DNA from: Azolla caroliniana
Taxonomy: Eukaryota; Plantae; Polypodiophyta
Direction of reading: 5' to 3'
Assembly (NCBI GenBank): GCA_043228905.1
Contig: JBHGNT010000012.1
Location: 17,050,001 to 17,114,000 of the forward strand
Length of the DNA: 64,000 nucleotides
The stretch's first letter is position 1. Every line of letters begins with the position of its first letter. The translations under genes were made by a program, and so were the position numbers. Below the pieces are notes generated by a model. That model was given only the letters and a program-made list of their open reading frames with translations, was not told the DNA's origin and ran no database searches. This document shows positions 2,811 to 49,734 of the stretch, piece by piece.

Positions 2811-5734
2811 TTTTTTTTTGAAAAGATACCAAATTAGTATTAAGGAACACCATGAGGTTATACAAGAAATTATATACATGCATGCAATTTCCCTTTTTTT
2901 AAGCCGAGGTTAAGTTCTAGCTATCGGTCTAAATAAATTTGTATAGCTACACTTTTTTACCAAATAAGAATATACTCCATTAGTTAAAATGACATTCAAT
3001 ACACAACTTTAGTCCCTTTAACGGGTAGTCATTACCTACTTCTATATGGGTTACATCACTTATTTATCTTACACTCAATAACCCACATGTTTGTTCTCTA
3101 GGTTTCTCATGTCATTCACGCCCCTCTTTCATCTAATGGGAGGGGGGAACAACCATCTAGGTACTACGTACTACTAATGTATATCCACTCCAGTTTCTGT
3201 AGCCATCGGTGTAGTACACCATCATTTCTGAAATTCAGCCTCATTAATTCTGAAGCATTATCTTTTCCATAAGTCTGCTCATATTGGGCCCTCAATTTAG
3301 TTATTAATGTGTGCCATATTAGCTTAATAGATTCTGATGGAGGCCGTTTGTTTGCTGAAAATACCCTGGTACATCTTGTTGTCCATATGCTCCATATGAT
3401 AATGGATGCAAGCAACATCCATAGATCTCCAATTTTCTGCTTCTGGGCATTAATTGTAGTTGCCTTGTTATCAGTGATCAATCGAATAGTTCCGTTCTCC
3501 CCTCTGTACATTGCTTTGCATCTGCTATCAAATTTGTCCACATCATCATCAAGACAGTTCCAACAAGCATGTCCCCATTTGAGGGTAAATGATCTAGAGG
3601 CATAGCATAACAATCGTAATGCCCTTCCCCATACAACCGTTGCCTCATGACATTCCCATAAACAATGGGAAATGCTTTCTAGTTGTCCACATGCACTACA
3701 TCTAGGGTCTACATTGGGGCCTTTAGCTCACGCCCCTACCGGCAAGGCTCTATGCACAATAAGACATAAGCACATCATTATCTTGCGGTCACCACCGTCA
3801 TGCCATATCATTTTCCAGAATTTAGCTAATCTCCTTTCACTAATGCCCTCTTGTATCCAAAATTTACGAGCAACAATATCTTTGTGTTCTTGTTTTAGAA
3901 TAATTTGCCTCCCGATTTTCGTGTTGTACTTGAAAAATTGAACCAACTTGACACCATCAATTTGTCCTTGAGTTCTCTAGAAATACATCGTTGGGTCCCA
4001 TGATAGCTGATTTGAATGCCCTTCTATCAGCCAACACATTGTTGTTGGTTTGATCTCACTCGGCTTGGGGACAACCATCATATCCTTTCCATTTTTTGCA
4101 AGCCACCTAATCGGCCTTTCAGTTTGATAGGCTGGTTGCTCACATGTTACCATTCCATGCTCTATTTTGTAGTAGCAAGCCTTGTTAGATCCTGCTTTCA
4201 ATCCCTTAATTCCAATTAGATAATTTTCAACATCTATAAGTCCCGTCCATTCAATTTCGGAGGGACTCATAGCTTCATCTTCCAAGGTTTGCCTGATGTG
4301 TGCAATGGCATCTGTAATCCTCATTACCATATTCTAGCCTTTTGAGTGCCCACATCATTAGACAGAAATTTCTCCCAATTTGCCAATGCATTCCCTTGGG
4401 CATTGATTAAGTTGGCCCATTTGAAGCCTGCTTTTTGTCCTATCATCAACCCATCCACATCTCTGATGAGTGGGTTCCAAACAATAGGCATGTACATTTG
4501 GGCATATGCATCATTTCTCCACCTACAAATGATTCCCTTTCTGATTCCTTGCCATGCCTTCATAATTCCAACAACACATATACTCTGTGTACATCCCCGG
4601 TATTTGCGTCGCATTTCTGGCACAAACCCCCAAAAAGCACTACTTCGCCAACTTCCACCTTGTCTTGGCAACCACATCCTCCATTTGTGTCTCCAAAGAA
4701 TTTTCCAAGGTGCCTCAAGTGGTTGCAAGCTCCTGACCACCAATTTTCCTAGCAAGGCCTTTGTTTGCACCACAGGATCTATTAGTCCCACCCCACCATC
4801 ACTTTTATCTTTTATAAGTGTGGTCCATGCAACCTTTGCACAAGCATGTTTTTCCTGTGTCCTCCCATAAGAAATTTCTGATAAGCCTTTTTATCACTTT
4901 CATCGACTTGGGCATGATTATCCAACATGCTGTAGTATGCCATATTGTGGCCATTAGAACTTGATTTGCAATCACAATCTTGCCTGCAAAGGATAATTTT
5001 CTTGCATTCCACCATATTAGCTTCGATTTTATTTTGTCCACAAGTAGATTGTAGTATTCTGAATGATCAATGTCCATACCGATTTTGAAACCCAAGTATC
5101 TAGTAGCTTCTCCTCTCCTCGGCCATCTGAAATTGGGGTCTGGAGCCCAATTTACCACAGGCTTATCGCTAATCCAAATGCCCACTGATTTATTCTAGTT
5201 TATTTTAGCACTCGATCCCCTACAAAACTCATTTATTGCCCTTTGTAGTCTGTCCAAGTTGTTTGCATCCCCCTTAACATAAGTTGTTGAATCATCAACA
5301 TATTTTGTATCAAGCATCATTCCTGCATCCTCGGGTAGGGGAAGGCCTTGTATTTGCCAATATCTATCAACAATATGATAATGCAAAGCTTTTGCTGCAA
5401 TAATGAATGTGCATCCTTGGCGAACCGATCGTGTCATCCTAAAGCTCTTCCCAAAGCTTCCAGACATTAAAACCTGGCTGGAAGCATCCCTATGAAAGGC
5501 AGCCGTTCCAAGGATCCATTGTTGCCCGAAGCCTAGGGCATCCATCACTACTTCTAGGAATTCCCATGAGATCCTGTCATATGCTTTTTCGAAGTCGAGT
5601 AACATTACTGCTAGGTCCACTTCTTGCTCCTCCACCCATGCTAAATTCTCCCAGAAAGTTATCACATTGTCAACAATGCTCTGGTTTTCTAGGAAGCCAG
5701 TTTGTGTTGTATGTATAATGTCCCCTAGTACCGT
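2811..5734 (-). mobile_element. L1-clade LINE, 3' half (decayed ORF2: RT, C-terminal zinc-finger region, 3' UTR, poly(A))
   Basis: Minus-strand ORF fragments contain QTGF, LLDFEKAYDRISWEFL, SVRQGC, YVDDST, RYLGF, GKIVIANQVL and a C-x2-C...HCLWEC zinc finger (~3650-3720). A T9 tract at 2811-2819 is the poly(A) tail. Many stops and frameshifts. Confidence 0.92.
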
Positions 5735-6372
5735 TGTCGTGAAGAAAACCGTCCACAAGCGGAATCGGTGTACCGGAGCGTAGAAACTGACTCTTCATGC
5801 ACGTGCGCCTTAAGTTGTACATAGGAGATCCTAGGTAAATTCGGTAGGTAGGGAGTAAAGGGGGGAAACGGCTCCTTCCTTGCCTATAAAAGGAGGGAGA
5901 CGAGGAGAGTAAGGGGATCGCGGAGAGTCGAGGACGAAGTGCTGTCGGTTTGCGTGCGAAGGCTTCTCTCTGTCTCTCTTTCCGGTTGCAAACGCCATAG
6001 CTTCCTTCTGTGCAGGTTTCGGGAGGCTCGCGCTGCTCTGAGGAATGCCCGAGTGCTTCCGGCAGCACCTCCAACCTACTCTTTCCCCTCTGTGCGTTTA
6101 TGAGCAGGTATCGGCATCTGTTCGCCGGCCTGTTCGGTTGTAACCGACTTCGTGTTTGTTGTCTTCGTGTTCTTGTTGTTTGTCTTGTCAATACATACAT
6201 ACTTTCGTGTCTTTCTGTGTCGCTGTTCCATTCGCGTCTTTGCGTCAAAGGGCCGTGTCCCTGTGAATCTACACTCGCACGTAGTGGGTCCCTTCTCTCT
6301 CTCTCTTACTCTTCGGTACAGGACCCCCGAGGTCCCGCCTCACTCCACGCATCTGCGAGGAATACCTCGACA
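5735..6372 (+). repeat. Family A Ty3/gypsy 5' LTR (copy A1)
   Basis: TGTCGTGAAG...CCTCGACA termini, TATAAAA at ~5885, near-identical to 32619-33238 (reverse complement), followed by a PBS and gag. Confidence 0.95.
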
Positions 6373-6376
6373 TATT

Positions 6377-6394
6377 TGGTGAACCCGACGTGAA
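6377..6394 (+). promoter_or_regulatory. Primer-binding site complementary to the tRNA-Trp 3' end
   Basis: TGGTGAACCCGACGTGAA, 4 nt after the LTR, is the reverse complement of the plant cytosolic tRNA-Trp 3' end (...TTCACGTCGGGTTCACCA, recalled from memory). Confidence 0.85.
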
Positions 6395-6416
6395 AGAGGC
6401 GGCAGAAGAGCAGAAG

Positions 6417-7142
6417 ATGAGGGGGTCGGATCTTGCAGAGGCCATGGCTTCGGCCGTGGATCGGATATTGAGCACACGCGAGGGCACCGGTGCCCTCGAC
6501 AGAGCCATTGAGGCGGTTGTCGGTACGATCGGCCGTTTCAGCGGAAAGGATGCTACGAGGTATTTGGCGTCCTACGGGGCGGAAATGCTGATGTGGGACA
6601 TTCCGGAAGAGAGGCGTCTTGCTGGGTTCCCTCGAGTGGCGATGCCGAGCATCCATGCGGAGGTGCTCGAGGTACGGGCGGAGAGCCGTACCTGGGAGGA
6701 GTTCGAAGGCCGACTCCTAGAGAAATATGGGCTGGACGACGTGCTCCGGCTTTCGAAACGGGACTTCATGGAATGGGTGGAGTCCCCCGGCAAAGGAAGA
6801 AACGCGTCGGCACTCCTCCGGGAGTTCGAAGAACGCTTTGCGCGCCTTTCGGCGCTTGACCGAACTATCCTGGATACGAGCCGGGTCCTACTGTTCGTCA
6901 AGTCGGTGGACGAGCGGGACCGGGATCAAGTCGGCTCCTTGCTGGAAACTGAAGACGGGTTGATGACCGACTGGGCTGCGGTTAAGAGAGTCTGTGGCCG
7001 TTTCGACAAACGGCGAGAATGGGCTGACAACGGGGCGGCCGGTGCGGGCTCTGTTACAAAGGACTGCGGCGATTTCGCAGAGGCGTTGAGAAACAGGGTG
7101 GTGTACCTGTGGGAAGGCCGGGTGCACGCTAGCGACACCCGG
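6417..7142 (+). pseudogene. gag: Family A gag, N-terminal part (internally deleted and truncated)
   Basis: ORF directly after the PBS (GRFSGKDATRYL...LLETEDGLMTDWAAVKRVC), homologous to 16281-17012 and to the element I ORF. Confidence 0.85.
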
Positions 7143-16280: not shown

Positions 16281-17012
16281 GCACCACATGCACCTGTTCC
16301 CCACTGCCGGCTGTCGGTCTCGAGCCGGTTCGCCGCCTTCCCTTCGAGCCTGGGCGATCTGGAGATCCTTTATCGCCCGCGTCAACTCCTCCAGCGTTGC
16401 TCCTCCGGACGAGCCATTGACCATGCCGGTCGAAGCCGGACCGGTTTCGAGCCATTCCCGGGTCTCTTCCCTTCGCACTTGCGGTGCCGATTCAAGTCTC
16501 CTTGCTGTGACAGAGCCCGCACCGGCCGCACCGGCCGCCCCGTTGTCAGCCCATTCTCGCCGTTTGTCGAAACGGCCACAGACTCTCTTAACCGCAGCCC
16601 AGTCGGTTGTCAGCCCGTCTTCGGTTTCTAGCAAGGAGCCGACTTGATCCCTGTCTCGCTCGTCCACCGACTTGACGAACAGTAGGACCCGGCTCGTATC
16701 CAGAACGGTTCGGTCAAGCGCCGAAAGGCGCGCAAAGCGTTCTTCGAACTCCCGGAGGAGTGCCGATGCGTTTCTTCCCTTACCGGGGGACTCCACCCAT
16801 TCCATGAAGTCTCGTTTCGAAAGCTGGAGCGCGTCGTCCAGCCCGTATTTTTCCAGGAGTCGGCCTTCGAACTCCTCCCAGGTACGGCTCTCCGCCCGCA
16901 CCTCGAGCACCTCCGCATGGATGCTCGGCATCGCCACTCGAGGAAACCCGGCAAGACGCCTCTCTTGCGGAATGTCCCGCATCAGCATTTCTGCCCCGTA
17001 GGACGCCAAATA
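16281..17012 (-). pseudogene. gag: Family A gag fragment (displaced)
   Basis: YLASYGAEML...RCMWC, near-identical to 6560-7057 and extending further. Confidence 0.88.
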
Positions 17013-17029
17013 CTCTTCCGGTGTCTACA

Positions 17030-17527
17030 CACAATCTCTTCCGGTGAGAATGCGAAGGCTTTCCCGTGCCTTCCGAGCATCCTCCGAAACCGGTCTTCCT
17101 CCGCCGGCAGTAAGAACCCGCCCCCACCGATTTTGAGCTCCCGGAGCGTCCCGTCGGTGAAGGTGTGTCCTATGCAGGCCGGATCTCGTAAACTGGGGTC
17201 CGACGCAACCCCTCTGATCTGGGACTCGCTGCCCTCCGGTAAGGGTGCCACGACTGGCCTTACCTTCCGGTCCACAGTCTTGTACTTTGTGCTAACTCGG
17301 GCCGTCCGATCCGACCCGAGCCCCCGACTGAAGTTCGCGATGACTTCGTACATCTCTTCGGAACATACCGGTATCGTCCGGTCTTCGTTAAGGTCTTCTC
17401 CGGCAACCTTCCTCAGCATCCCTAAGGTGTCGTCGAAGGAGACCGCCTCCACAGCTCCGCTGATTTCCTCGTCCGGGCCAAGAACTCCGCACACTCGAAG
17501 TCGCTCTTCCGCCCTTGTCTTTTCTCG
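17030..17527 (-). pseudogene. pol: Family A pol N-terminus (pre-RT region)
   Basis: STKYKTVDRKVRPV...AFAFSPEEI, a duplicate of 22909-23240. Confidence 0.85.
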
Positions 17528-18862
17528 GCAGAGGCGTTGAGAAACCGGGTGGTGTACCTGTGGGAAGGCCGGGTGCACGATGGCGACACCAGGAGGGCCC
17601 TGAGCCGAAACGACGGGCGAGGAGGTATGAAGAGACTGATGGAAGAGGCAGCGGCCCGACACGTGGAGGCCATCCACTACTCGGCGTCGGCCGGTATTCG
17701 GGTTGGGGGCAGCGAGGCCCGAAAGGAGAGTAAAGACGGTTTCTGGTCGGCAATGCTGGAAGGCCTCGCCGGTGCGCAGCTGAGAAAAGATGAAACGGAC
17801 CGCGCTGAGAGACGGGTCCGGGAAATAACCGGGTGGAGTGATCCGGTCGAGGAGAAGACGGGCTTCGTAGAAGCCGCTTGCCGGAACTACGAGGCTCTGG
17901 TAGAAGATAAGCGAGTAGGGAAAGCCAGAGCGGCCGGGCCCTCACAACGGTACAAGACCCGATTCGGGCAACGACGGAACGATGCCGGTGGGCCCGGCCC
18001 GAAAGATAACCCCAGGAAGGGCGGGTACCGATTGGGGACAGAAATAGAAAGGACTACGGACCTACGAAAGGTCCTAGAAGAACGGATCCTCGACAACAAA
18101 GTGGAGCTGTCATTACGGGAGGTGCTAGGGATCGCCAAGAAGGAGTTCCACGACTCCATTGTAGACTTGGTGAAACGGAAGAGACTGTCGACGGAGACGG
18201 AACCGGAAAGACTGGTGGAGGTGCGGACGACGCACATTGACGACTCGGCGCTGGAAGATGAGTGGGCGGAGAGCCACTATTCGAGGCCACACTGGGCCCG
18301 AGCGACCACGGAGACCCCGGTAAAGATCGGAGATGTTCAGGAACCGGTGGTGGCGTTGGTGGACCACGGTTTGGAAATAAACCTAATGTCCATGGACTTC
18401 TATAAGAAGGGAAAGTGGCCGATCAACACCAGGCACGGGTGGAAGATACGGGCGGCGACGCGCGCCACCGAGGAACTGCACGGGGCCTGCCCGAATGTGC
18501 GAGTAAAGATCGGCGACGTCGAGATTGACCAACACTTCTTCGTACAGGAGACGTCCTCGCATCCGGTCATATTAGGGGAACCATACATCACGGCGGCGAG
18601 AATGGAGACCAAGGTGCTGGACAACGGTTCGGCCTACGCGAGGGTCAAAAGCCAGGACGGGCGCCATTCGGTGCAATTTTTGACGGTGCGGCCGAACCAC
18701 GAGAGAAACCGCGAGTCCCTCGGTGGCGAGAGCCGGGAGGATTTTTAGAGAGGGCTGCCAAGGCGTGGGGCCGAGACAGTCCGGATACTCGGGAAAGACC
18801 CCACGATTGTATGATAGGCAGGAGATTTTGCTTCTCCGACAGCGGAGGGTGTATGGTGGTCG
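17528..18862 (+). pseudogene. Family A gag C-terminus and aspartic protease, then the start of the -1 frame pol
   Basis: ORF 17537-18748 with ALVDHG(L/S)EINLM and VILGEP protease motifs, ending REDF-stop at G GAT TTT TAG. Confidence 0.88.
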
Positions 18863-19380
18863 GTGTGAACCGGATGAGGAGTACCCGGCTACGGAGAGCC
18901 GGATGGTGCAGAACCGGTGAGAACCGGAGGAAGAGACATATTCGTAAATATGTTTCTGAGGGCCCATCGAGGCTATATTTGTAAATAGCCGAAAAGTGAT
19001 ATTAGTATAAATATGACTTAGGGCAAACTTTTAGTTGTTGTTGTCATTTTTCTGTTTTGCACGAGATCAGTGTGCGTAACTGTACAGAGAGAGAGAGAGA
19101 GAGAAAGAGGTCGTTGCCTCTGTTGTAACCGCCGCCTGTGGCGAAGATTTGTGAGCACTAGGTCGGTGCCTCAGTGAACTCACTGTTGTATATTTCTACA
19201 TAGTGACAGTTTGCAGCCTGTGGGCTGCCGTGGTTTTTCCCCTAGTTTGGGGTTTTCCACGTAAACCTCCTGTGTATTCTCTCCTTCTTTGTGTCTCGTT
19301 TTATTTCCCGTGTTTTTGTGTATCATTCTAAGCTCGGTTGTGGCCGAGCGTCGCGCATAAGGAACATTGGGTTCCCGACA
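18863..19380 (+). repeat. Family G copia 5' LTR (5'-truncated)
   Basis: Ends TTCCCGACA, followed by the tRNA-iMet PBS TGGTATCAGAGC (19383-19394). Homologous to solo LTR 36950-37779. Confidence 0.9.
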
Positions 19381-19410: not shown

Positions 19411-19720
19411 ATGGACGAATCGTTTGGTGGCATGTTCAAGCTCACCGGCTCCAACTATTCGGTATGGAAGTCGAAGATGAGGGACATGCTCGTGGTTAAA
19501 GACCTCTGGCTGCCGGTTCAGTTCGGGGACAAGAGACTGGACAAAATCGACGCCGCGATATGGGAGGTGATGCACATGAAGACAACGGCGTACATACGGT
19601 GCTTCATCGACATGAGCTTGTACAACAACTTCAATGAAGAGAGCAAGGCTCATGAGCTCTGGGAGAAGATCGACATAATGTTTCAGAACAAAAATGTTGT
19701 TAACCAGGTGTCAGTATTCC
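19411..19720 (+). pseudogene. gag: Family G copia gag N-terminus (Tnt1/Tork-like)
   Basis: MDESFGGMFKLTGSNYSVWKSKMRDML...AHELWEK. Truncated by a junction to family A RNase H. Confidence 0.88.
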
Positions 19721-21558: not shown

Positions 21559-21631
21559 AGGCTGGACCGGTTTTCTCCGTCCCAACTCAATTTGGCGCAT
21601 GCCGGTGGATGCGCGGTTAGGTGGGGGCGGA

Positions 21632-31900: not shown

Positions 31901-32618
31901 TGCAATGGACACTTGCTTCTATGTAGTGACTAAGAGAAAAATACCCGAATAATGTATGGATTGAGGCCTGACTAGAGGAGGCAAAATGCAAATTGGATAT
32001 GTATCATAAACTAAGGACTACCAATGCCTATCAAAGTAAGGCATCAAGCTGGATGAGGGTAGGAGACCGTGTTACAAAAGGTTTTTTTGAAGCTGTAAAA
32101 TGTAGAGGCTCTGGGACTCAACCTTCATGTTTGAAAAAGACAAATGGCACAATGACCACGTGCGAGGAGAAATGCTTGAAATGGCCACGAGCTATTATAT
32201 GCAACTACTAAATGTATGCAACGAGGAACAGATTGATCAGGATGCATTTAGAAATATAATAAACAGGATATCGAAGAGAGTTACGGCTCAAATGATGGAC
32301 CGACTAAATCCTATATATGTATGCAGGAATTGTGGGATGCAATTTTAGATATGAACAAACAAAGGTGTGCAGGCATTGATGGACTCCCTATATATTTTTA
32401 CATCAAATATTGGGATCTAATTAAGGATGACATGTTGGAAGGGATGCAATACATTATGGCAAAAGGCGTAATGCCTCCAACAATGTGTAGAGGAATGATT
32501 TATTTAATTCCCAAGGATGGAAAAGATCTAACAATACTTTATAATTGGCGACCATTGGCAATTCTTACTAATGCCTATAAGATCATGGCTAAAGTTGTAA
32601 GTAGTCAATTGAAAACGG
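28950..32618 (+). mobile_element. L1-clade LINE, 5' half (ORF1, endonuclease, start of RT)
   Basis: ORF1: VVKVVG, MGKGFY and the knuckle CFVCRQMGHMARECP. ORF2 APE motifs: TWNIQG, VQEHH, NIYAPN, GGDFN, LDRWY, SDHAPV. RT: GIDGLP, WRPLAIL..AYKIMAKV. The 5' boundary is approximate. Confidence 0.92.
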
Positions 32619-33238
32619 TGTCGAGGTATTCCTCGCGGATGCGTGGAGTGAGGCGGGACCTCGGGGGTCCTGTACCGAAGAGTAAGAGAGAGAGAGAAGG
32701 GACCCACTACGTGCGAGTGTAGATTCACAGGGACACGGCCCTTCGACGCAAAGACGCGAATGGAACAACGACACAGAAAGACACGAAAGTATGTACGTAT
32801 TGACAAGACAAACAACAAGAACACGAAGACAACAAACACGAAGTCGGTTACAACCGAACAGGCCGGCGAACAGATGCCGATACCTGCTCGTAAACGCACA
32901 GAGGGGAAAGAGTAGGTTGGAGGTGCTGCCGGAAGCACTCGGGCATTCCTCAGAGCAGCGCGAGCCTCCCGAAACCTGCACAGAAGGAAGCTATGGCGTT
33001 TGCAACCGGAAAGAGAGAGAGAGAGAAGCCTTCGCACGCAAACCGACAACACTTCGTCCTCGACTCTCCTCATCTCCCTCCTTTTATAGGCAAGGAAGGA
33101 GCCGTTTCCCCCCTTTACTCCCTACCTACCGAATTTACCTAGGATCTCCTATGTACAACTTAAGGCGCACGTGCATGAAGAGTCGGTTTCTACGCTCCGG
33201 TACACCGATTCCGCTTGTGGACGGTTTTCTTCACGACA
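32619..33238 (-). repeat. Family A 3' LTR (copy A1)
   Basis: Reverse complement of 5735-6372. PPT at 33239-33256. Flank ACGG. Confidence 0.95.
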
Positions 33239-33311: not shown

Positions 33312-35629
33312 TCATTCCCCGCCCGTCGGTTCTTCCTCGGTTTCGGATCGCTCGACGTGACGCTTCTTGAACGTCTTGATCCGCTTCCCAGCTACCGGTA
33401 TCGCCATTCTCGTACCGTCGAGTTCCGCCAGATGGTACGTCCCGTTGTCGTTGGCGCTTTGTACCACGTAAGGCCCGAACCACCTTCTTGCGAACTTCCG
33501 CGTCGCTCGGTGCTGGTTGTCGAGGCTACTGTCGTAGACTAGCACTCAATCGCCTTCCTCGATCTTCTTCAGTCGAAGCCGGTGCGTTCGGTCGAACCGG
33601 GCTTTGTTCCTCATCCTTGCTTCCCGAAGCTTTTCCGCAGCCTGCTTCACGTCCTCCGGTCTCCGCTCGAGCTGTCGTATGCGCGCCGTCAACAGTTCCT
33701 CCCGGCTCATCTCGTCTCTCCAGTCCACGGTTGCCCATGAGGAGACCGTACGTTCGATCGGCATGATCGGCTTCTGCCCAAACATGAGCTTTGCCGGCAT
33801 GAATCCGGTTACCGAACTGTGCGTAGTCCGGTCAGCCCACAACGCGTAAGGCAGTAACCGCGGCCAGTTCCCGACTTGACCTCCGCATGCCCGAACTAAC
33901 GCCTTGACGATCGGTCCGTGTTCGCGCTCTACCTTCCCATTTGCCTCTGGATTGTACGCAGTGGTAAGCGAGAGCTTGACCCCTAACCGGTCGAACAGCT
34001 CCTCGGCCTCTTCGGCGTCCAACTCCCCGCGATTAGCCACGATCTTCCCGACGCACCCGTACCGGCATATTACGTCCTCGAGCAGGAACCGACATACGGC
34101 TGCAGTCGTTTTGTTCTGAAGGGCCCGGCCTTCCACCTGGTTCGTTAGATCTTCCCGAGCCAGGACCAAATACCGCATCTGTCCTACTCCTATCGGCATC
34201 GTTACCAGGTCTACCATCCATTTGAAGTGGACGGTCGGAGGGTACGTAGGGTGAAGTTCGTCCCGGTGTCGGACTATGGAGTGCATCTGACAGCTCTCGC
34301 AAGTTTTCACGAATCGATGCACGTCCCGGTACAGTCCCGGCCACCAGTACTTCCCCTTTATCTTCTCGAACGTGGCCCAGGTTCCACGGTGTCCGGCCCA
34401 AGGGCTGTCGTGGTAGGCCGTCAGCAGCTCCTCCTATTCTTCCTTCATCGCCACCACCCGGAGCGGAGCGCCGTCCCTCTTCTTCGGGTGCTTCCATAAG
34501 TATCCGTCCCGGAGAAAGAATCGGTAAGCTTTCTTCCGGATCCGGTTGGCCTCGTCCTTCGTCCATGACGCATCCGGCGTCATTGTCCTCAAGAATCCAC
34601 CGATCTGGAGCCACTCGCCGTCGTACTTGCTCTCGTCGAAGTCGTTAAGTGCCGGAGTGCTCATCCCATTGGTCGTCACGTACGCCGCCTCGAAGAAGTC
34701 CACGCCGACTTCTTCGTCCTCCAAAACCATGTCGCCCTCGTCATCAAACCTCGCCCTCGAAAGCATGTCGGCCATGGCGTTGTCCTTTCCGGAAATGTGT
34801 CGTATCTCTGGGTCCTGCGACTTGATGTACGCTATCCACCTGAGCATCGCCAGGTCCGGTGTCGCGCATCCGGAAACCATGCCAAGAATCGGCAGGCAAT
34901 CCGTCTCGATAATCACTTCTGTCCCGATCAGGTAGTCTTTGTCCGCCTTTACTGCCGAAACGATACCCCAGAGTTCGCGTTTAACCTGGGCGTACCCTTG
35001 CTGTCGCTCACTGAGGACCTTAGCGCCGAATCGGATCGGGAACCGGGTGTCGTCCTCGTCTTCTTGGTTGACGACCCATCCGATCCCGGTCGGGCTCGTA
35101 TCCACCGTTATGTATACCGGGGTACCTTTCTCGTAGACAGCCTTCCGGAGCGCCGGTGCTGCCGTAAGAGCTTCCTTCAGCTTCCGGACCGACCCCGTGT
35201 GCTCATCTCGCCACTCGAATTTTCGCCCTTTCTTCAGCAACCCGTATAGCGGCTCTGCAACGTGGGCGTAATGCGGGATCCATATGTGGTAGAATGCGCA
35301 TGCCCCCAGGAACCTCCGAACTTCCGTAACCGAGCTACAGTCGGTCTTCATCGCGGAGATGGCTTCTACCTTTGCCGGAGACGGCTTCCGACCATAAGGT
35401 TCGCATAGGTGTCCGACCACCAGGATTTCTGATTGCCTGAAGGCCGATTTCTCCCCGGAGAAGGTGAGCCTCGCATCCTCCAGCCTTTGTAGCACCTTCT
35501 CGCAGTCGTCGATGTGTGTCGCCACGAATCGCCGGCATCCGTCCGGCCTGACTGTCTCGTCCTTCTCCTCCACCGGGCACCCTTTGATAGGGATGTCGTC
35601 TAGAAACGGCATGGTGCAATCCCGGACAT
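33312..35629 (-). mobile_element. pol: Family A (copy A1) RT C-terminus, RNase H and integrase
   Basis: PFLDDIPIKG, VRRFLG, ITVDTS, KRELWG, HHCC, D-D-E core and WFGPY. Confidence 0.94.
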
Positions 35630-35659
35630 CACCATGCCGTTTCTAGACGACATCCCTAT
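35587..35659. repeat. Perfect 30-bp inverted repeat (fold-back) at a rearrangement junction
   Basis: ATAGGGATGTCGTCTAGAAACGGCATGGTG (35587-35616), a 13-nt loop, then the exact reverse complement at 35630-35659. Confidence 0.95.
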
Positions 35660-38980: not shown

Positions 38981-38995
38981 CACTCTGATTCCACT

Positions 38996-39557: not shown

Positions 39558-40939
39558 AAGCGCTCGAGTGGGAAATGGCTATTTCCCAATGTGTGAAAAC
39601 ATCCACAATTGAAGAAGTCGATTTAGGAACAATCAACGACCCTAGGATGATTAACATCCGAAGGAGTTGGCGTCGACTGAGAAATCAACGATGATAGATC
39701 TATTAAAAGAATACAAAGACGTATTCGTATGGTCATATAGTGATATGTATGGCCTCAATCCTAGGTTCTATCCGCATCAAATACATCTCCATACAAATAC
39801 AAAACCAGTACAATAGAGGTGGTATGAACCCAAACTATGCGGCTACAATGAAGGAAGAAATCGACAAGATGCTCCAAGCCGGTTTCATTCGGCCGGTGAA
39901 ACAAGCCACATGGCTTAGTCCAATTGTGGTAGTGTTGAAGAAGAACGACCAAAATCCGATTTGCGTCAACTACCGGAAACTCAACACTACCACCATCACA
40001 AAGGCTTTCCCCCGCTTTTTACTGATGGCATATTGGATGCTGTTGCAGGCCACGAAATCTACAACTTCCTGAACGGGTTTAGTGACTACCACCAAATTCG
40101 GATGCACCTGGACGACTAGGTGGAGACATCTTTTGTCACGGTGTCGTGAAGAATTTCGGCCAGAGGCGGAAACCGGGAAACATTGGCTACATCGGCGGGG
40201 TGCAGTGTGTGTACGCACCCATGTACATTTAGTGTGAATATCGAGGGCGCCTTTATGGCGCCGAAGAGTAGTCAGGACCAGGCAGACGATCCCATGGAAG
40301 GCGGGATTTGTCCCACATTGTAACGCATCCCCTTCCTTGTTCTATAAAAGGAAGGGAACGCCCTTTGGAAAAGGGTTGCCCATTTTGCATTAGAGGGTAT
40401 ACCGTTAGGTTTAGAGTTAGTTTCTTGATCTTCTCCTTCGTGTTCGCTTAGGGTTTGTTGCAGCTTATCTCCTGTGCAAGACCCCGCTCGGTGCGACGAG
40501 CCCGAGAGCTCCCCGACGGCGGCTTGACAGCAGATGACTATTGTAACCTACCTCAGCTTGGCTCGACGCCGGGAATGTATTCTTCTATTTATATATATAT
40601 ATATATATACGTTTGTCTGTGTATATTCGCGTCGTTGTTGGCGTCGGGTGCTTAACCTCTCCTGCGTTTTCTTTACATAAGGCGTGAGTCGGGTTGGGCT
40701 GTGTGAGCGTGTGCGTGTGCGTGTGCATGTGTGCGTGAGTCGGTGTTAAGCACGCTCTCTCTCTCTCTCCCTTCGGGGGCTTCCGGGGTGCTTTCGGGAT
40801 GCCCCAGAAACAGTGAAGCACGACTTCCTACGCTCCGTCTCTCCCTAGTCCAAGACCCCCGTGGTCCCGCCTTTCTCCACGCACGCGCGTAACAACGCGA
40901 CATCTTTGGTGAACCCGATCTGAAAGGCGGCAAGGGAGG

Positions 40940-42220
40940 ATGGAGTCGGAAGGCGACGACCTTGCGGAGATGGTGGCCGAAGTGGTGTTGGAGTCGGCAC
41001 GAGTGGTGATGAGGCGAGAAGCAGCGCAACAGGCGGTTGAGCGAGTGGTCGAAAGAGTCGGCCGTTTCAACGGGGACAAAGTCCCATCTTACTTGGAGGA
41101 GCGTGGCGTAGATGAGGCGTTGAGGCTGGAGTTCTTCTGTCGGGTCGTGGCTGTCCGGATGCATGCGGAAATAAAGGAGCTCCGTGAGGCTCATAGTTCG
41201 TGGGAGGCCTTCGAAGAGGCGCTCCTGAAGGCATACGGAGGACGGCGGAAGAGCCGGGGACGACATGACTTTGACCAGTGGGTAGCATCGGCAAAGACCC
41301 ACCGGGGCGCGACCAAGGCGTTCCGAGAGTTCGAGCGACGGCTTGCTCGGCTCCTGGAGCGGGAACAAGGTTTGGTGGGGGCGGACAAAGTCCTTTTGTT
41401 CGTCAGGTCGATCGACCGAGCGGAACGGGAAGCCATCGGGATTGAGCTCGAAGATGATGACGGAGCGAATGGGCTTACGGAGGACTGGTCAAAGGTCGGA
41501 AGTGTGTGCCAACGGCTAGACAACGAGCGAGCCGAGAAGGCTAAGAGGAAGGTACGCGACGGCGTGCCATCACAGCGGGAAGAGGCCGAACGGCAAAGAG
41601 AGTCGGCAAGGGTCGGCGTTGGGGCCAGGATTGCGGAGGTGTACGCAGCGCTCAAAGCGATGCTCGAGGAAGAGGGAGGATCGAGGCCAGAAGCTGAGAC
41701 CGAGGAAACGGACTTGCCCCACGCAACGGCGGAAGATCGGTACGGCGGTATCACGGGAGAGGGTGTGGAACAAAACGCACTCTCGGCTTGCGGAGATAGA
41801 ATGGCCAAGGACGAGGCCAAGATACAGATCGCGGAACCAGAACGTTGGGACCAGCGGTTTCGGGCATGTCAGCCCGAGATCCCGGTCATTGAAGAAGCAA
41901 GCCCAGACGGGGCTTGCGCGATCAGTAAGAAGTCGACCACCGACCACGGAGAGCCGGTGGCTACGGACAAGGGCGTAAAACGGACGGGCGATTCCTTGTG
42001 TCTTCCCACACTTGCTCCCGAGACGATGGCAATCGGGCCCGAGTGCCCACGTGAGTCCCAAGCGGAGGAAGGCGGTGGTGAAGGGCCAAGAATCACCGGC
42101 GAGACGATACGGGGAAGGAGTGGACGAAAGCCCACGGACCCGATTCCGGAGAACTCGGCATTTGGGCCCGTATGCCCATATAAGACCGAGGAGATGGATG
42201 GCGGTACCGAGGAGTCCTAG
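40940..42220 (+). CDS. gag: Gag-like protein with a low-complexity C-terminal extension (426 aa)
   Basis: VGRFNGDKV, VLLFVRSID...GLTEDWSKV align by eye to family A gag (IGRFSGKDA, VLLFVKSVD...GLTTDWAAV). Confidence 0.8.
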   Translation: MESEGDDLAEMVAEVVLESARVVMRREAAQQAVERVVERVGRFNGDKVPSYLEERGVDEALRLEFFCRVVAVRMHAEIKELREAHSSWEAFEEALLKAYGGRRKSRGRHDFDQWVASAKTHRGATKAFREFERRLARLLEREQGLVGADKVLLFVRSIDRAEREAIGIELEDDDGANGLTEDWSKVGSVCQRLDNERAEKAKRKVRDGVPSQREEAERQRESARVGVGARIAEVYAALKAMLEEEGGSRPEAETEETDLPHATAEDRYGGITGEGVEQNALSACGDRMAKDEAKIQIAEPERWDQRFRACQPEIPVIEEASPDGACAISKKSTTDHGEPVATDKGVKRTGDSLCLPTLAPETMAIGPECPRESQAEEGGGEGPRITGETIRGRSGRKPTDPIPENSAFGPVCPYKTEEMDGGTEES

Positions 42221-42602
42221 CACGATGCCAGCGAAGACGGATGGGAAACGCCCTGTGGGAAGGCCGAGGACGGACACGACACGTGGAGATCGGCATTCCG
42301 ATAAGGGTGGAGTGTGATCCGGTCGTGGGTCGTTCGATCGAGGCCGGGCTCGGCCTAAAGGCGCCGATACGGGAAGGGGTGCGGGACGAGCCGCCCTCTT
42401 TTACATGGGGAGAAAGACCGATCGGGCGAAGGTCGAGATTATGAACGAGAATGAAAGCCGGTCCTATGGGATTCCTTACACCGAACCGGCTGCAGGCCCG
42501 AGTGCCGGCGTGAGTCCTATAAGAGAGATCGGTGGCGACAGGAGAACGGGACTCGGAAATCCGAAAAAGGACGACCCGGGACAGGGTCAAGAAGGCGACG
42601 AA

Positions 42603-43137
42603 GGTCTACGGAGGATCCTTCACACCGGTTCTAGAGACTTCGGCGGTCAGCAACGCGGCCGACGTAAGACCAAGATACTGACGGTGGCGGCGAGGTGACG
42701 AAGGCAAGGGCTACGGATGGGCGGTCTACGGAGGATCCTTCACACCGGTTCTAGAGACTTCGGCGGTCGGCAACGCGGCCAACGTAAGACCAAGATACTG
42801 ACGGTGGCGGCGAGGTGACGAAGACAATGGGCGTAGGGAAGTCCGGTCCTGCGAGATCCCCACACTTAACTAGAGACTCCGGCAGTTCGGCCAACGTGGC
42901 AACATGAGACCGAGAGAGAAGGTTGGTGGCAGCGGGAAATGGGACCCGACTACGCGGACGACACGAGGAGAGTCCGGGAGGGACTCAAACAAAAGACACC
43001 CTAGTTTCGGCAAGCATAGAAACAGAGTCCGGTCCTATGGGACCCTCACACCGATCCGGAGACTCCGGCAGTTCGGCCAACGTGGCAACGTGAGACTGAG
43101 GGAGAAGGACGGTGGCAGCAGGGAACGGGACCCGACG
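42603..43137 (+). repeat. Internal tandem duplications of element I (~120-bp pair and a related ~110-bp pair)
   Basis: GGTCTACGGAGGATCCTTCACACC...GAGGTGACGAAG at 42603 and 42723. GAGACTCCGGCAGTTCGGCCAACGTGGCAAC at ~42873 and ~43060. Confidence 0.85.
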
Positions 43138-45081
43138 ACACGAGGTATCGGAAGAAGCCGGTAGGGGTGAACACGGGGAGGTGTGTCAGGCCGGAAAGGC
43201 ACACCTTGGACAGAACAAGAGTCTCGCAAGTGGCCATCGCGGGCCGGATCGAAGCGTGACTACGGGACGGTGTTCGGCACGGGCGGGCCGAACGAAGGAA
43301 GTGGAAGACTCAAGACCTATCGCGGCAGCACGAAGACGGGGAGGGCCAAGCGGGCTACTACGGGGTGTTCCTCGGATGCAAAGGACATCGGTATGCGGGT
43401 GAGCGGCGATGCACGATCTGCCTGGGAAGGGGGCCGACGAGGCGTGCAATGAACCGGAGTACGGCACAGGCGGTGCCAAACAACGGACGAGGGTATGTGG
43501 CACATGGAGGTGCCGGAGCGGAAAGGTGAGCGCGGAGATAGGTTGCACGGTTCGGAGGTATCGCGGAGAAGACCGGAAAGGGATCCTCCACACTGTTCCG
43601 GAGACCATGGCGGTTCGAGCCGACACGGCGATGTAAGACCATGGAGAAGGAAGGTGGCGGCGAAAGGACGAAGCCAACTCGAAACAACATCAGGACATCA
43701 CGGTTGGTCAATGGGGGCCAAGCGGGCCACTACGGGCATGCCTCAAGCGGAGGACATCGGGCCTACGGCGGGAAGCAGGGCGTTCATATGGCCGAACAAG
43801 GGCCAACGGAAGTACGCGTACTACGGAGATCGCGGCAGAGGACCCATCAACGGGTCGAACGAGCCTACGGGGAGACGAGCGCGAAGGAAGACTCGGAGCC
43901 GACGGATCAAACCGGCAGCGAGCCGAGATGCGGATCACGGGAGACCGGTTTCTCACCGGCCGAAATCTCTCACCCTTCAACCAGATTTGGCACGTACCGG
44001 TGGACGTGCAGTTAGGTGGGGGCGGATGTCATGAAGAATTTCGGCCAGAGGCGGAAACCGGGAAACATTGGCTACATCGGCGGGGTGCAGTGTGTGTACG
44101 CATCCATCTACATTTAGTGTGAATATCGAGGGCGCCTTTATGGCGCTGAAGAGTAGTCAGGACCAGGCAGACGATCCCATGGAAGGCGGGATTTGTCCCA
44201 CATTGTAACGCATCCCCTTCCTTGTTCTATAAAAGGAAGGGAACACCCTTTGGAAAAGGGTTGCCCATTTTGCATTAGAGGGTATATCGTTAGGTTTAGA
44301 GTTAGTTTCTTGATCTTCTCCTTCGTGTTCGCTTAGGGTTTGTTGCAGCTTATCTCCTGTGCAAGACCCCACTCGACGCGACGAGCCCGAGAGCTCCCCG
44401 ACGACGGCTTGACAGCAGACGACTATTGTAACCTACCTCAGCCCAGCTCGACGCCGGGAATGTATTCTTCTATTTATATATATATATATATATATATACG
44501 TTTGTCTGTGTATATTCGCGTCGTTGTTGGCGTTGAGTGGTTAACCTCTCCTGCATTTTCTGTACATAAGGCGTGAGTCGGGTTGGGTTGTGTGAGCGTG
44601 TGCGTGTGCGTGTGCGTGTGCGTGTGTGCGTGAGTCTGTGTTAAGCACGCTCTCTCTCTCTCTCCCTTCGGGGGCTTCCGGGATGCCCCAGAAACAGTGA
44701 AGCACGACTTCCTACGCTCCGTCTCTCCCTAGTCCAAGACCCCCGTGGTCCCGCCTTTCTCCACGCACGCGCGTAACAACGCGACAACGGAATGGGGTGT
44801 TTTTGCGGCAGTAGTCATGATGTTTAGTCTATAAACAGCGCCGACAACATTCCAGCGGATCATCGTGGAAATATTTGGCGATTACATTATAACATTTATG
44901 CAGGTCTTTTTAAATGATTTTGTTGTATATAGCCGATGACTCGAACATCTAGAGCACCTCCGCCTTTGCTTGGATAGATGTTGCGCAACTTGTCTAAGCT
45001 TGAATCCCACGAAATGTGCCTTTGGTGTTGCCAACATAGCGTTACTAGGTCATATCGTCAGTGGGGAAGGCATCGTGGTTG

Positions 45082-45595: not shown

Positions 45596-45628
45596 CCTGG
45601 CATGCCCCTGGGACAGTGCCTTGCACAT

Positions 45629-47829
45629 TGTCGTGAAGATTTTCGGCAACGGTGTGAAAATTGCATGGAACATACAAAATCAAGTGTGTTTTTTCACACA
45701 CGATATGAAACAATAGTAAGAAGAAACTATTTTAGATTAGTTTAATATCTTGGTACGAAAAGATGGATGTCTTCAAGAGCTTCCGAATGCATTTTACTAT
45801 ATATTAAATGGACAACTAAGTGTCAAGTTATGTGAATGTGAAGTTTGAGAAGAAGAAGAGGAAAACAAACATAGATAGGACAACATTAGGATCCCAGAGT
45901 ATATAAGCAGACCCATACCTCTTTATATTATATTTATGTGTTTGGAGCACAAAAAGGTTGGGTTTTATAACTTAGATGAATGGATGTGACCATAGATTGA
46001 CATATTCGCATTCGTGGGGGTTACCATACAAATACATACGAATATGCATAAGAATACATGAAAAAATGTTCGTTAAAAAAAAGAAAAAAAAAGAGTTCCT
46101 ACTTTTTAGTTTGTAATATGTATCATATAACAAAGAGACTTTCACATTAAATATGGGATATTTAACTTGACATTAAAAAGGAGGCTTACACTAAATAATA
46201 TTTTTATACAATAAATGGAAAACTTAAAAGTTAAAAGTATTTGTTTTATTTTTAATAAATATAAAAAAATAAAAAATAAAAAATAAAAGGTTCATTAATT
46301 TCCCACTTTACTCTCCCACAAAAATCGATATTTTTATTTTTTATTAAAAGGGAACCTCATACTAATAATATTTTTATAATATATATAAAACTTAAATGTA
46401 TTTATTTTATTTTTTAATGAAACGAAAAATAAATAAATATATGTAAATAAATAAACTAAATAAAAGGTTCCCATAAATTTCATATTTTTATTTCACATTA
46501 AAAAGGGGAACTCACACTAATAATATTTTTATAATATTTAGCAAACTTAGATGTATATGTTTTAATTTTTAATAAAACAAAAAATGAATAAAATATATGT
46601 AAATAAATAGAATAAATAAAAGGTTCTCACAAAATTTTATATTTTTATCTCAAGTTAAAAAGGGGACCTCACACTAATAATATTCTTATAATAGATCAAA
46701 AACTTTAAAGTATTTGTTTTATTTTTAATAAAAAAATAAAAAATAAAAAAAGGTTCATTAATTCCCCACTTTTTACTCTCTTGACATTAAAAAAGGGACC
46801 TTAGGCTAATAATATTTTTATATATAATATATAATTTTAAAAAAAATAATAAATAAATAAACGAATGGTTCTGTAATATTCTTGGGGTCATTTTGTATTC
46901 TCGAATTTTATGGATGTCGAATATTACGAATTTCACGCATGGGTCAATCTATGGATGTGACCAAACTTCCTAGATGAACGGATGCGGCAAAGTTGATCAA
47001 ATTGGCTTTTGGACGGATCCGGACGGCCGACACGAGACCGGATCGGATGTGGACCGGACTGGTAGGGTCGGACGGGACAAGACCAGACATGGATCAAACG
47101 GACAGATCGAATGGGTCAGTTGGATAGCTTGATCACGATGCATAGTGTTGTGAAGATTTTCGGTGTGAAACGAAGAAAATCGTCTATGGGTTCCATCGGT
47201 TCTTTGGAGGTCAACTAAAGGTGTAATATGCAGTTAAACATTTGTAAATACAAGGCTAAAGCCTTGTAAAATTTTGTGCTTACGACGAGGAGTAAGTAAG
47301 AATTTGAACCTTACACCTCCTAGATAAGAGCCAAAAGACTTACCACTAAGCCAAGTCATGGCTTTAGAGTGTTGCTTTTATCATTGTAGTTTTCATATGT
47401 AAAATCTCATACATGAGGGTTTCGATGAGTGACATGGTCATCATGCATCAGAAGTGATGCATGAATGCCAAATAGCAAACATGCATCGCATGCATTCCAT
47501 GCGTTGTATGCATGTCTTGTACCTTCACATGCATCATATGCATGCCCGGGGCATCTATAAAAGAGTGGAGGAATCTAGCAAGCAGGGGGGACGAATGAAG
47601 AAATTGGAAAAATAAGGAAACTTGTTATCCTATTGATGATGTATCTTCGCCCTCAAATCTAAAGTCAAGGGTTCAATCTTTATCTCAATCTCTCTCTCTC
47701 CATATCAATCTCTCTCAATCTATCTTAAATAATTTCTCGCTAAAGCTAGTGCAAACTTCGAATCCTTCTGGTCCAGGACCTCGGCGGTTCTGCCTCATGA
47801 TCCGCACATAGTGACGGATTTTCACGACA
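45629..47829. mobile_element. Element K: non-coding insertion with family A-like TGTCGTGAA termini at both ends
   Basis: TGTCGTGAAGAT... / ...ATTTTCACGACA. Flanks ACAT / ACGT. Internal copy of the left terminus at 47146. LTR-like TATA and (CT)n at 47550-47720. Confidence 0.75.
46171..46860. repeat. Degenerate AT-rich tandem repeat (~130-170 bp, 5 units) inside K
   Basis: Motif TTAAAAAGGG..CTCACACTAATAATATTTTTATA at about 46171, 46343, 46496, 46654 and 46785. Confidence 0.8.
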
Positions 47830-49734
47830 ACGTCGAACCCAAAAAACAAAATCGCTCCAAAATATCAAAATCGAGAAGTTGTGAAAGTTGTTATGTTGAA
47901 AGAGCTGAAAAATGCTACTGTACACTCAGTCTTCTTCAAAAATTGATGTGATGCCCTCCGATTGCTCTGATTCCCCCGGTTTGAGATCTTCCCTTTACTT
48001 TGTCGGCACTTGAGTCGCCTCCTCCTGTTTTAGCTCGTCTGTCTGTAGCTCGGTCAACAAATCGAGCTATTGTTCTGTAATTTCCGTCGTGATTTCCATA
48101 GCCCCTTTGTCCTTCTTTGTCTCCGTGGTTTGTTCAACCACTTGTTGCCTTTCTGGTCTCAGGCGCGGCCCCTCTTCTTCTTTCAGCTCCTAGGATTCTT
48201 CTTCTTTCTGCTACTGGAGTGCGTCCTTGGTCATTTGACCTGGTGAGGCCTGTGGTGCGGCTTCTGCTTCCTTTTCAGCTCAGAGGCATTCACGTTCATA
48301 GCCTTCTGTTTCAATGATGAGCAATAGTTGATCATTGTTAAATTCTTCGAGGAGGTTTCCAATGGCCGTGGTGCGTTTTTGGGCCAAGGCGTGGAATTCC
48401 TTGGTGAGGTTTTCGCGAAGGATCTAAATGCTGTTTTTGTCCATTTTATAAAATCCATGACATTCTTTTCTTCAGTTTTCAGCATTCGCTTGGAAGACCT
48501 GTAACTCGGCTGCTTGAGCCGACCATTCATTCCATCCGTGAGCGGGTGCTTCGTCAACTTTTTGATTCAGCTTTAGCCGGTGCTTCGCCACTAGTGCCTT
48601 CACTCGGGTTTGTTGAGAATTGAACTCAACTTCCCAGAGAGATAATGTTCACACTAGTCAGTGGACATCATACTAGGCTAGTTTTGTAATTAGTAGAAAG
48701 GGCGTTTGCCCTTAGATCAGTTGGATGTAATTTATCTTTTTACTAATACAACTTTTTGTTCAAGCTCTCCCTCTCTCTCTCTTTGTCTTGGCTTACGAGC
48801 ACTCTCTCTCACACACACATAGCTCGCTTCCATTACACAACACCACCTACGTCTCTCACTATGTACAGGGTTTTGCCCATTTCATATTTGGCACAGAGGG
48901 TGTCCAGTTCTTCTTTGGCAGTTGCGGCTTCCCGTTTGAGCTTGGCTTTGAGGATCTCGCACGATACGGAAACTCCAACGAGCTTTTCCTCCATCTCCTT
49001 CGTATGTAGGTCGTAACGTCGGAGGAGTCAATCTGAATTATCCGCTAACTCCTGCAGATATTGGTCACGCTGTTGTTTGAGTTCTAGTGTCACGGAGATT
49101 TTCAATTGGTGGAGGGACTCTGATAATGTATTTTTCTCCTACTCAACTTCGTCTAACATTTGAAGGTGCCAACTGGAGCGAATTTGGAGTTCCGAGAGTT
49201 CGTTTTGTAGAGTTGGAAGTTCTTCGGATTGTCGACTGTATGCCCTTTGATGCTCTTCCTCAACTTCGACTAATTTTGCTGTTGATGCCTCGTTTGCCGC
49301 CTGAAGGGCCGACGTGACATTTTCTTTAGTTTCCCGGAGCTTGGCCGTCTGTGCATCAAGCCGTTCTTTCAATTCGGCTTCACGTTTTGCTGCGTGCTCC
49401 CGGAGTTGGTCGGCTTCTGCTTTGGCCACGAGCTCCTCTTCGTGGTTGGGTGGAGAGATCTCGGTCGTTTTGGTGGCCAACACTGAGTAAGTTGTGTCCT
49501 TGGTTTGTGTGGACACATCCACATGGTTGGTAATAGGGGGTGGAAGGGTGAGATTCTTTGCTTGCTCATTTTCTTTGAGGTGTTGCTGAAGCTCGGCTCT
49601 CTGGCATTCCGAAGCCTGCCACAGTTCTGTAGTCGTCTTGGCTTGTTTGTGCGCATGTTTGCTACTGACCACCATATCTTTAGCTGTGCGGGTCTTCTTG
49701 TCCAGTTCTTAGTAAACTTTGACCAGGCCTGTGT
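47830..49734 (-). mobile_element. Family E-type 3' region (copy E3) with decayed, E/K/Q/A-rich extra ORF
   Basis: ORF 49139-49675 (EELVAKAEADQLREHAAKREAELKERLDAQTAKLRE). Contiguous across element C with 63223-63354, which is homologous to E1 12510-12570. Confidence 0.6.

What the first reader, a model, noticed from the sequence alone, without database searches (positions are those of the whole stretch)
5731..47833. LTR retrotransposon group with CpG-centred 4-bp target sites (Ginger1-like specificity)
Seen: all four insertions with TGTCG...CGACA-type ends have 4-bp TSDs with a central CG. A1 is CCGT (5731-5734 and 32615-32618; removing one copy restores the LINE frame LKT-VLG). A2 is GCGG (22254-22257 and the reverse complement of 25015-25018). 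Element I is ACGG (40138-40141 and 44787-44790; restores FVT-EWG). Element K is ACAT/ACGT (45625-45628 and 47830-47833; one CpG transition). The scorable copia insertions here have ordinary 5-bp TSDs (ATATA, [T/C]GCTT). A1 hit a CG in a visibly CpG-poor LINE. Established: most plant LTR elements make 5-bp, weakly specific TSDs, while Ginger1 DNA transposons (gypsy-integrase derived) were described with CCGG/CCGT-specific 4-bp TSDs. Inference: the A integrase reads CpG (possibly methylated CpG), steering the family into old repeats, and may be close to the Ginger1 integrase lineage. n is only 4.
Basis: partly seen in the sequence, partly recalled or inferred. Interest (0 to 1): 0.82.

Follow-up and report, generated by a model that had tools for sequence, protein, structure and literature searches.

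The report
Known CpG-targeting Phygy retrotransposons
These jumping genes really do sit in four-base target sites with CG in the middle, but this habit is already published for the Phygy group of moss retrotransposons, to which they likely belong, so the finding is ordinary and the proposed links to DNA methylation and to Ginger1 transposons remain untested.

Summary
A1, A2 and I have exact 4-bp duplications (CCGT, GCGG, ACGG); K has ACAT/ACGT. Removing one copy restores the host reading frame at A1, A2 and I. Three of three further scorable junctions from relatives are also NCGN, and contigs from public runs join the A LTR mostly through CG-bearing flanks. It is not new: REXdb reports 4-bp NCGN duplications in all 186 Phygy elements of Physcomitrella (PMC6317226). 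Family A fits Phygy: gypsy domain order, tRNA-Trp primer site, no chromodomain, no extra RNase H. A tree with Phygy references could not be built. I is a non-autonomous derivative; K is most likely a long solo LTR. The Ginger1 link is weak: only 2 of 7 sites fit Ginger1's CCGG/CCGT/ACGG, and 0 of 30 scanned integrase neighbours carry its OTU/Ulp1 domains. Nothing here shows that methylation is read; three of four hosts are not CpG-depleted. Likely mechanism: a 4-bp-stagger integrase kinks its target at a central CG step. Ordinary; low interest.

The parts
5731..5734 (+). A1 target-site copy CCGT, inside a LINE reverse-transcriptase frame
5735..6372 (+). A1 5' LTR (638 bp)
   Evidence: 95.8% to 32619-33238 by BLAST; K2P 0.015
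6377..6394 (+). A1 primer-binding site, tRNA-Trp type
   Evidence: 16 of 18 to the complement of a published human tRNA-Trp 3' end
6373..7142 (+). A1 gag start, broken off
16282..18863 (.). scrambled A-family gag, protease and pol-start fragments on both strands
   Evidence: DUF4100 hit in 17426-18748
19720..21560 (+). A2 RNase H and integrase (HHCC, DDE, degenerate GPY region, acidic tail, no chromodomain)
21617..21631 (+). A2 polypurine tract region, identical in A1 and I
21632..22253 (+). A2 3' LTR
22254..22257 (+). A2 target-site copy GCGG, inside a copia gag-pol frame
22906..24436 (-). A2 gag-protease and pol start
24485..25014 (-). A2 5' LTR with an internal deletion
25015..25018 (-). 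A2 second target-site copy (reads GCGG on the minus strand)
32615..32618 (-). A1 second target-site copy (reads CCGT on the minus strand)
32619..33238 (-). A1 3' LTR
33352..35642 (-). A1 pol: RT end, RNase H, integrase with GPY motif
40138..40141 (+). element I target-site copy ACGG, inside a gypsy RT frame
40142..44786 (+). element I: non-autonomous relative, two 760-bp LTRs (K2P 0.030), Trp-type PBS (14 of 18), same PPT as A, gag-like ORF only
44787..44790 (+). element I second target-site copy ACGG
45625..45628 (+). K left target-site copy ACAT
45629..47829 (+). element K: LTR-derived 2.2-kb unit (likely long solo LTR); 5' start like I, 3' 80 bp homologous to the A/I LTR 3' end, AT-rich tandem array inside, no coding match
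47830..47833 (+). K right target-site copy ACGT

Best explanation
A1, A2, I and K are insertions flanked by 4-bp CG-centred target sites, made by non-chromovirus Ty3/gypsy retrotransposons that likely belong to the Phygy clade, whose integrase is predicted to cut the host DNA four bases apart and kink it at a central CG step. Shown: the duplications, the gypsy RT-RNase H-integrase order, the Trp-type primer site, the lack of a chromodomain and of an extra RNase H, and shared LTR ends and PPT across A and I. Inferred: family A supplied the integrase; I (gag-like only) moved in trans; K is what LTR-LTR recombination left of a long-LTR relative. Inferred from retroviral work: a 4-bp stagger needs a sharp central bend that favours pyrimidine-purine steps; choosing CG over TA, CA and TG would need added base contacts in the integrase. 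Methylation of the CG is not required by this model. After insertion the elements and their target sites decay at CpG, which explains ACAT/ACGT at K.
For: Four of four window sites NCGN, three exact and frame-validated. Three of three scorable one-sided junctions in metagenome loci NCGN: L007 ACGT, L004 GCGT, L001-L003 TCGC (one site in three assemblies); L005 and L006 not scorable. Public runs laid on the A1 junction: loose ends with unrelated flanks join at 5732 or further left in 107 contigs in the rows shown (14, 22, 51, 20 in X1, X2, X4, X5), 56 join at 5735 with a PPT-like consensus, no row shown at 5733 or 5734; without preference joins at 5733-5734 should be about 22 times commoner than at 5732 or left. 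REXdb: Phygy 4 bp 100% NCGN, n=186, tRNA-Trp 81%, no extra domain; the only plant lineage with a sequence preference. PBS 16/18 and 14/18 to tRNA-Trp. Named homologues are from liverworts and a fern (Riccia, Calypogeia, Adiantum). Integrase groups with Riccia elements (SH-like 0.998), 25% and 24% identical to the window's other two gypsy integrases. Bend rule for 4-bp integrases: PMC4422553. 21 of 33 LTR-pair transitions lie at CpG (6/8, 4/7, 11/18).
Against: No Physcomitrium-named protein appeared among the listed hits of three homologue searches (best 120 of 177, 178 and 414), and the REXdb sequence file could not be read, so the defining tree placement is untested. Rough intact length about 7.0 kb (my arithmetic) is just under the Phygy range of 7.7-10.0 kb. 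In one search, 42 loose-end rows are hidden, X1 and X2 are one sample, the aligner's end scoring is unknown, and only one LTR end is seen. The bend rule explains YR, not CG alone. K's second copy is imperfect and no other K copy was examined.
Confidence: 0.85

Rival explanations
1. The integrase reads methylated CpG directly, so the family is steered into already silenced repeats without a chromodomain.
For: All four hosts are repeats; A1 hit one of only 2 CGs in the 200 bp on either side in a CpG-depleted LINE (o/e 0.35-0.42). CpG decay in the LTR pairs suggests that repeats in this genome are CG-methylated (inference). The integrase has no chromodomain.
Against: Three of four hosts are not CpG-depleted (o/e 0.73-1.05). 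The window is almost all repeats, so landing in a repeat carries no information. A strict CG requirement explains A1 without methylation. No methylation data were available.
Confidence: 0.1
2. The CG-centred preference is inherited from a common ancestor with Ginger1 transposases; this lineage is the retrotransposon sister of Ginger1.
For: Both make 4-bp CG-centred duplications and have TGT-type ends; the A integrase has the GPY motif. In the published NJ tree Ginger1 lies beside Athila/Tat, a Physcomitrella element and Ylt1-like fungal elements (PMC2836005 supplement), and A's wider neighbours include fungal integrases.
Against: That paper states that no Gypsy lineage clusters with Ginger1 with significant support. 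Only 2 of 7 sites fit the Ginger1 set. Of the 150 nearest integrase representatives, 93 carry RT or RNase H by my profiles; of 30 picked as the likeliest stand-alone or long-tailed ones, 0 hit OTU or Ulp1; the other 120 were not scanned against Pfam. GPY is general to gypsy integrases.
Confidence: 0.15
3. A separate non-seed-plant gypsy clade, not Phygy itself, that shares the 4-bp NCGN target and the Trp primer.
For: No Physcomitrium-named hit; estimated length slightly below the Phygy range; REXdb defined Phygy from one species.
Against: Four diagnostic features match Phygy together; TatI (extra RNase H) and Selgy (tRNA-Ala, 5 kb) are excluded.
Confidence: 0.1
4. K is a terminal-inverted-repeat DNA element (Ginger-like MITE) rather than an LTR remnant.
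For: Its two ends are inverted repeats at 11 of the first 12 bases, longer than in A or I; no LTR pair, no ORF.
Against: Its last 80 bp, terminal 9 bases left out, align to the LTR 3' ends of A, I and five loci better than shuffles (0 to 3 of 2000 reach the score in each of 9 comparisons); the ends do not mirror each other beyond about 12 bp, whereas Ginger1 TIRs are 40-270 bp.
Confidence: 0.1

Closest known systems
Phygy clade, non-chromovirus Ty3/gypsy (Neumann et al. 2019, PMC6317226; passages and supplements MOESM5, MOESM6 read; MOESM1 and MOESM3 not readable)
   Same: 4-bp NCGN duplication, tRNA-Trp primer site, no chromodomain, no extra RNase H, compact coding region, non-seed-plant hosts.
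   Different: Defined from Physcomitrella patens; this host is another, unidentified non-seed plant. Estimated length about 7.0 kb against 7.7-10.0 kb. Here accompanied by a non-autonomous family (I) and a 2.2-kb LTR-derived unit (K).
Ginger1 DNA transposons (Bao et al. 2010, PMC2836005; passages, part of Results, Discussion, supplement S2 read)
   Same: Gypsy-type integrase with HHCC, DDE and GPY; 4-bp duplication with central CG; TGT ends.
   Different: Ginger1 has 40-270-bp TIRs, no RT, OTU/Ulp1 tail, animal hosts, and a narrower target (CCGG 75%, CCGT/ACGG 24%). A has LTRs, PBS, PPT, RT and RNase H; 5 of 7 sites lie outside the Ginger1 set.
TatI and Selgy (PMC6317226 supplement MOESM5)
   Same: 4-bp duplications; TatI also uses tRNA-Trp.
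   Different: TatI carries an extra RNase H (absent here); Selgy uses tRNA-Ala and averages 5 kb; no NCGN preference reported for either.
Retroviral integrases with 4-bp stagger such as prototype foamy virus (PMC4422553; abstract and passages read)
   Same: Works like them: 4-bp stagger with a pyrimidine-purine step at the centre.
   Different: Their preference is weak and accepts any YR step; here it appears close to strict CG.
GingerRoot (Cerbin et al. 2019, PMC6839031; passages read)
   Same: Integrase-related element in a non-seed plant.
   Different: 6-bp duplication, mostly TA ends, 100-150-bp TIRs, no sequence-specific target.

Membership tests
Phygy (REXdb) | Ty3/gypsy domain order RT-RNase H-integrase between LTRs | tested here: met
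Phygy (REXdb) | No chromodomain and no extra (archaeal-type) RNase H | tested here: met
   Integrase ends in a short acidic tail about 70 bp before the LTR; about 50 residues between RNase H and integrase; no Chromo family on the listed full-length relatives
Phygy (REXdb) | 4-bp target-site duplication | tested here: met
   exact for A1, A2, I; one mismatch for K
Phygy (REXdb) | NCGN target motif | tested here: met
   4 of 4 in the window, 3 of 3 scorable in loci; pile-up
Phygy (REXdb) | tRNA-Trp primer-binding site | tested here: met
   16/18 (A1) and 14/18 (I) to the complement of a human tRNA-Trp 3' end printed in 10.1101/400127; the host's own tRNA was not available (searches found nothing)
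Phygy (REXdb) | Length 7.7-10.0 kb | tested here: inconclusive
   no intact copy; rough estimate 7.0 kb from L007 and P0121
Phygy (REXdb) | RT/RH/INT cluster with the Physcomitrella Phygy references | not testable with these tools
   REXdb FASTA too large to read; no Physcomitrium-named hit listed
TatI | Extra archaeal-type RNase H | tested here: not met
   no room for it in A pol or P0121
Selgy | tRNA-Ala primer site, about 5 kb | tested here: not met
   Trp-type site
Ginger1 | DNA transposon with 40-270-bp TIRs and no reverse transcriptase | tested here: not met
   A has LTRs, PBS, PPT, RT end and RNase H; K's inverted ends are about 12 bp
Ginger1 | Target CCGG or CCGT/ACGG (99%) | tested here: not met
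   2 of 7 sites
Ginger1 | C-terminal OTU or Ulp1 domain | tested here: not met
   absent from A; 0 of 30 scanned neighbours
Ginger1 | GPY/F motif | tested here: met
   WFGPY in A1; shared with gypsy integrases generally
Ginger1 | YPYY motif | tested here: inconclusive
   a degenerate stretch lies at that place; the reference alignment could not be read
Ginger1 | Integrase clusters with Ginger1 transposases | not testable with these tools
   no Ginger1 sequence could be fetched; tree has none

The most novel reading that the evidence does not exclude
Phygy-type integrases read 5-methyl-CpG itself, giving a chromodomain-free route that aims a retrotransposon at DNA the host has already silenced, and this CG-centred readout is an old trait shared with fungal relatives and Ginger1 transposases.
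Probability: 0.1. Interest if true: 0.65.

Novelty: new member of a known kind. Interest (0 to 1): 0.17.

Why it matters
As it stands it extends a published trait (Phygy NCGN targeting) to another non-seed plant, to a non-autonomous family and to a long solo LTR. One practical point: CG-centred duplications decay by CpG mutation (K), so LTR finders that demand a perfect duplication would under-count older copies (inference). The mechanism of the CG preference was not addressed in the papers my searches returned. If the integrase read methyl-CpG, it would be a new way for a mobile element to find heterochromatin, and testable in Physcomitrium.

Tried and rejected
No whole genome is held, so no genome-wide logo could be built. 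Laying runs on 32400-35700 showed very high depth over the element but no usable junction rows. The LTR 3'-end pattern found 7 metagenome loci and nothing in genome or viral contigs; P0121 found nothing in viral contigs. A search for the primer tRNA in genome and viral contigs found nothing. The ESM Atlas returned only generic integrase clusters. Cluster look-ups gave no Physcomitrium names (10 clusters) and named Smittium, Chara and Agrocybe for 5 of 20 further proteins. A group of 540-650-residue 'stand-alone' integrases looked like possible transposases, but 3 of the 7 inspected begin with an RNase H tail and two others sit in clusters with 1299- and 1343-residue members, so they are read as truncated pols. 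Papers on Ylt1 gave no target-site motif in the passages seen, so whether fungal relatives share NCGN is open. Vendrell-Mir 2020 and the tandem-LTR paper do not mention Phygy. Rejected: wrong pairing of the inverted A1/A2 ends; K as a Ginger-like TIR element; GingerRoot.
Full report
Observation. The eight junctions are as described. The duplication is exactly 4 bp at A1 (CCGT), A2 (GCGG) and I (ACGG); K has ACAT/ACGT. One retained copy restores the host frames (LINE, copia, gypsy RT), and paralogues in the window without the insertion carry a single copy. A1 and A2 are each split by an inversion, so their two LTRs face opposite ways. The pairing is still secure: partner LTRs differ by K2P 0.015 and 0.021, cross pairs by 0.10-0.12. 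The chance of four CG centres is 1.5e-6 from local CpG frequencies, or 2.7e-4 for any shared dinucleotide, with the caveat that A1 and A2 are one family. The two copia controls are 5 bp.

More sites. No genome is held. A pattern from the LTR 3' end found 7 metagenome loci. Three are one site assembled three times; two have no host junction (L005 lacks the LTR start, L006 is a PPT-LTR-PBS tandem junction). The three scorable one-sided junctions read ACGT (L007), GCGT (L004) and TCGC (L001-L003), all NCGN; their duplication length cannot be checked. Contigs of four public runs (three samples) laid on the A1 left junction give loose ends with unrelated flanks that join at 5732 or further left in 107 contigs in the rows shown, 56 at 5735 with a PPT-like consensus, and no row at 5733 or 5734; 42 rows are hidden. 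None of the 32 listed pieces starts at 5733 or 5734, though that list favours long pieces. With no preference, joins at 5733-5734 would be about 25% and at 5732 or left about 1%. This is indirect support for a genome-wide preference.

What the elements are. Family A is a Ty3/gypsy LTR retrotransposon: 620-640-bp LTRs, gag with DUF4100, protease, RT, RNase H, integrase with HHCC, DDE and GPY, then a short acidic tail and the PPT. There is no chromodomain and no extra RNase H. The primer site matches tRNA-Trp: 16 of 18 (A1) and 14 of 18 (I) to the complement of a human tRNA-Trp end printed in 10.1101/400127 (one passage read). Element I (4.6 kb) shares the LTR 3' end, PBS type and PPT with A and encodes only a gag-like protein (25-29% to A-type gags), so it is non-autonomous. 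K (2.2 kb) has no LTR pair and no coding match; its start matches I at 18 of 19 bases and its last 80 bp are homologous to the A/I LTR 3' end (0-3 of 2000 shuffles in each of 9 comparisons). It is most simply a long solo LTR. Named homologues come from liverworts (Riccia, Calypogeia) and a fern (Adiantum), then Chara and the fungi Smittium and Agrocybe. In a FastTree integrase tree (96 sequences: 93 of 164 candidates with a full integrase plus three from the window; 410 columns; rooted on the window's chromovirus) A1 lies in a clade with Riccia elements (SH-like 0.998) inside that wider radiation, apart from the window's other gypsy elements. The host is a non-seed plant; I did not identify it.

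What is known. Neumann et al. 2019 (PMC6317226; passages, supplements MOESM5 and MOESM6) state that Phygy elements are the one plant lineage with an insertion preference, NCGN, and tabulate 186 elements, 4 bp 100% NCGN, tRNA-Trp 81%, 7.7-10.0 kb, no extra domain. Jedlicka et al. 2019 (PMC6911290; passages; author name recalled) also report 4-bp duplications as commonest in Phygy and GC-rich centres in 4-bp sites. Phygy is reported in the liverwort Apopellia (PMC12885004; passages). Family A meets every Phygy feature I could test except length, which is inconclusive. The defining tree placement could not be run: the REXdb sequence file and element table were too large to read, and they would bear directly on membership. 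TatI and Selgy are excluded. So: works like Phygy, shown; is Phygy, likely (0.85).

Mechanism. For retroviral integrases with a 4-bp stagger, the target is sharply bent and unstacked at the central dinucleotide, which favours pyrimidine-purine steps (PMC4422553; abstract and passages). CG is such a step. I infer the same geometry here, with extra base contacts to narrow the choice to CG; neither is shown for this protein. Post-insertion CpG decay is visible: 21 of 33 transitions between partner LTRs are at CpG, and K's left copy lost its CG.

The two bolder ideas. Methyl-CpG reading: only the LINE host is CpG-depleted; the other three are not, the window is nearly all repeats, and a strict CG need explains A1 alone. 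No methylation data were at hand, so it is not excluded (0.1). Ginger1 kinship: Ginger1 uses CCGG 75% and CCGT/ACGG 24% (PMC2836005); here 0 of 7 sites are CCGG and 2 of 7 fit that set, as expected for any NCGN (22%). Among the 150 nearest integrase representatives, 93 carry RT or RNase H and 0 of the 30 scanned carry OTU or Ulp1. The Ginger paper itself finds no gypsy lineage clustering with Ginger1 with support, although its NJ tree lists Ginger1 next to Athila/Tat, a Physcomitrella element and Ylt1-like fungal elements with low values. I had no Ginger1 sequence, so the link stays open (0.15). Searches for Ginger1 + target site duplication + CCGG, REXdb + Selgy + Phygy + TSD, Phygy + retrotransposon + moss and NCGN + retrotransposon returned no listing that ties Phygy targeting to methylation or to Ginger1; I read only passages of those papers.

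Verdict. Real feature, already described for its likely clade. New member of a known kind; interest 0.17.

Noticed in passing
window 5731-39559: At least three target-site pairs are split by inversions (A1, A2, and the copia TGCTT/CGCTT pair at 27084 and beside 39559), and A gag/pol pieces at 16282-18863 are scrambled on both strands. Real repeated rearrangement or assembly error was not resolved.
   Followed up: partly
window 35587-35659: A 73-bp, 90% fold-back palindrome sits exactly where A1 pol breaks off, as expected of a template-switch breakpoint.
   Followed up: no
window 36950-37779: A copia solo LTR also starts TGTCG but has a 5-bp ATATA duplication; it carries 54-bp tandem repeats.
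   Followed up: yes
window 46161-46822 and 47146: K holds an AT-rich array of about 155-bp units and a second, decayed copy of its own 5' terminus 684 bp before its end, about one ordinary LTR length.
   Followed up: partly
L006:2658-3930: A relative of element I with one LTR between a PPT and a PBS, i.e. a tandem or circular junction (could be an assembly collapse).
   Followed up: no
window 55555-62569: A chromodomain-bearing gypsy element with 99.6% identical LTRs ending in TA rather than CA, a primer site of Met type (label recalled), and no target duplication; its two flanks belong to different copia regions.
   Followed up: partly
window about 9080: The uninterrupted RT paralogue of element I's host reads ACAG where the target was ACGG, i.e. 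the CG is absent at the empty paralogous site.
   Followed up: no
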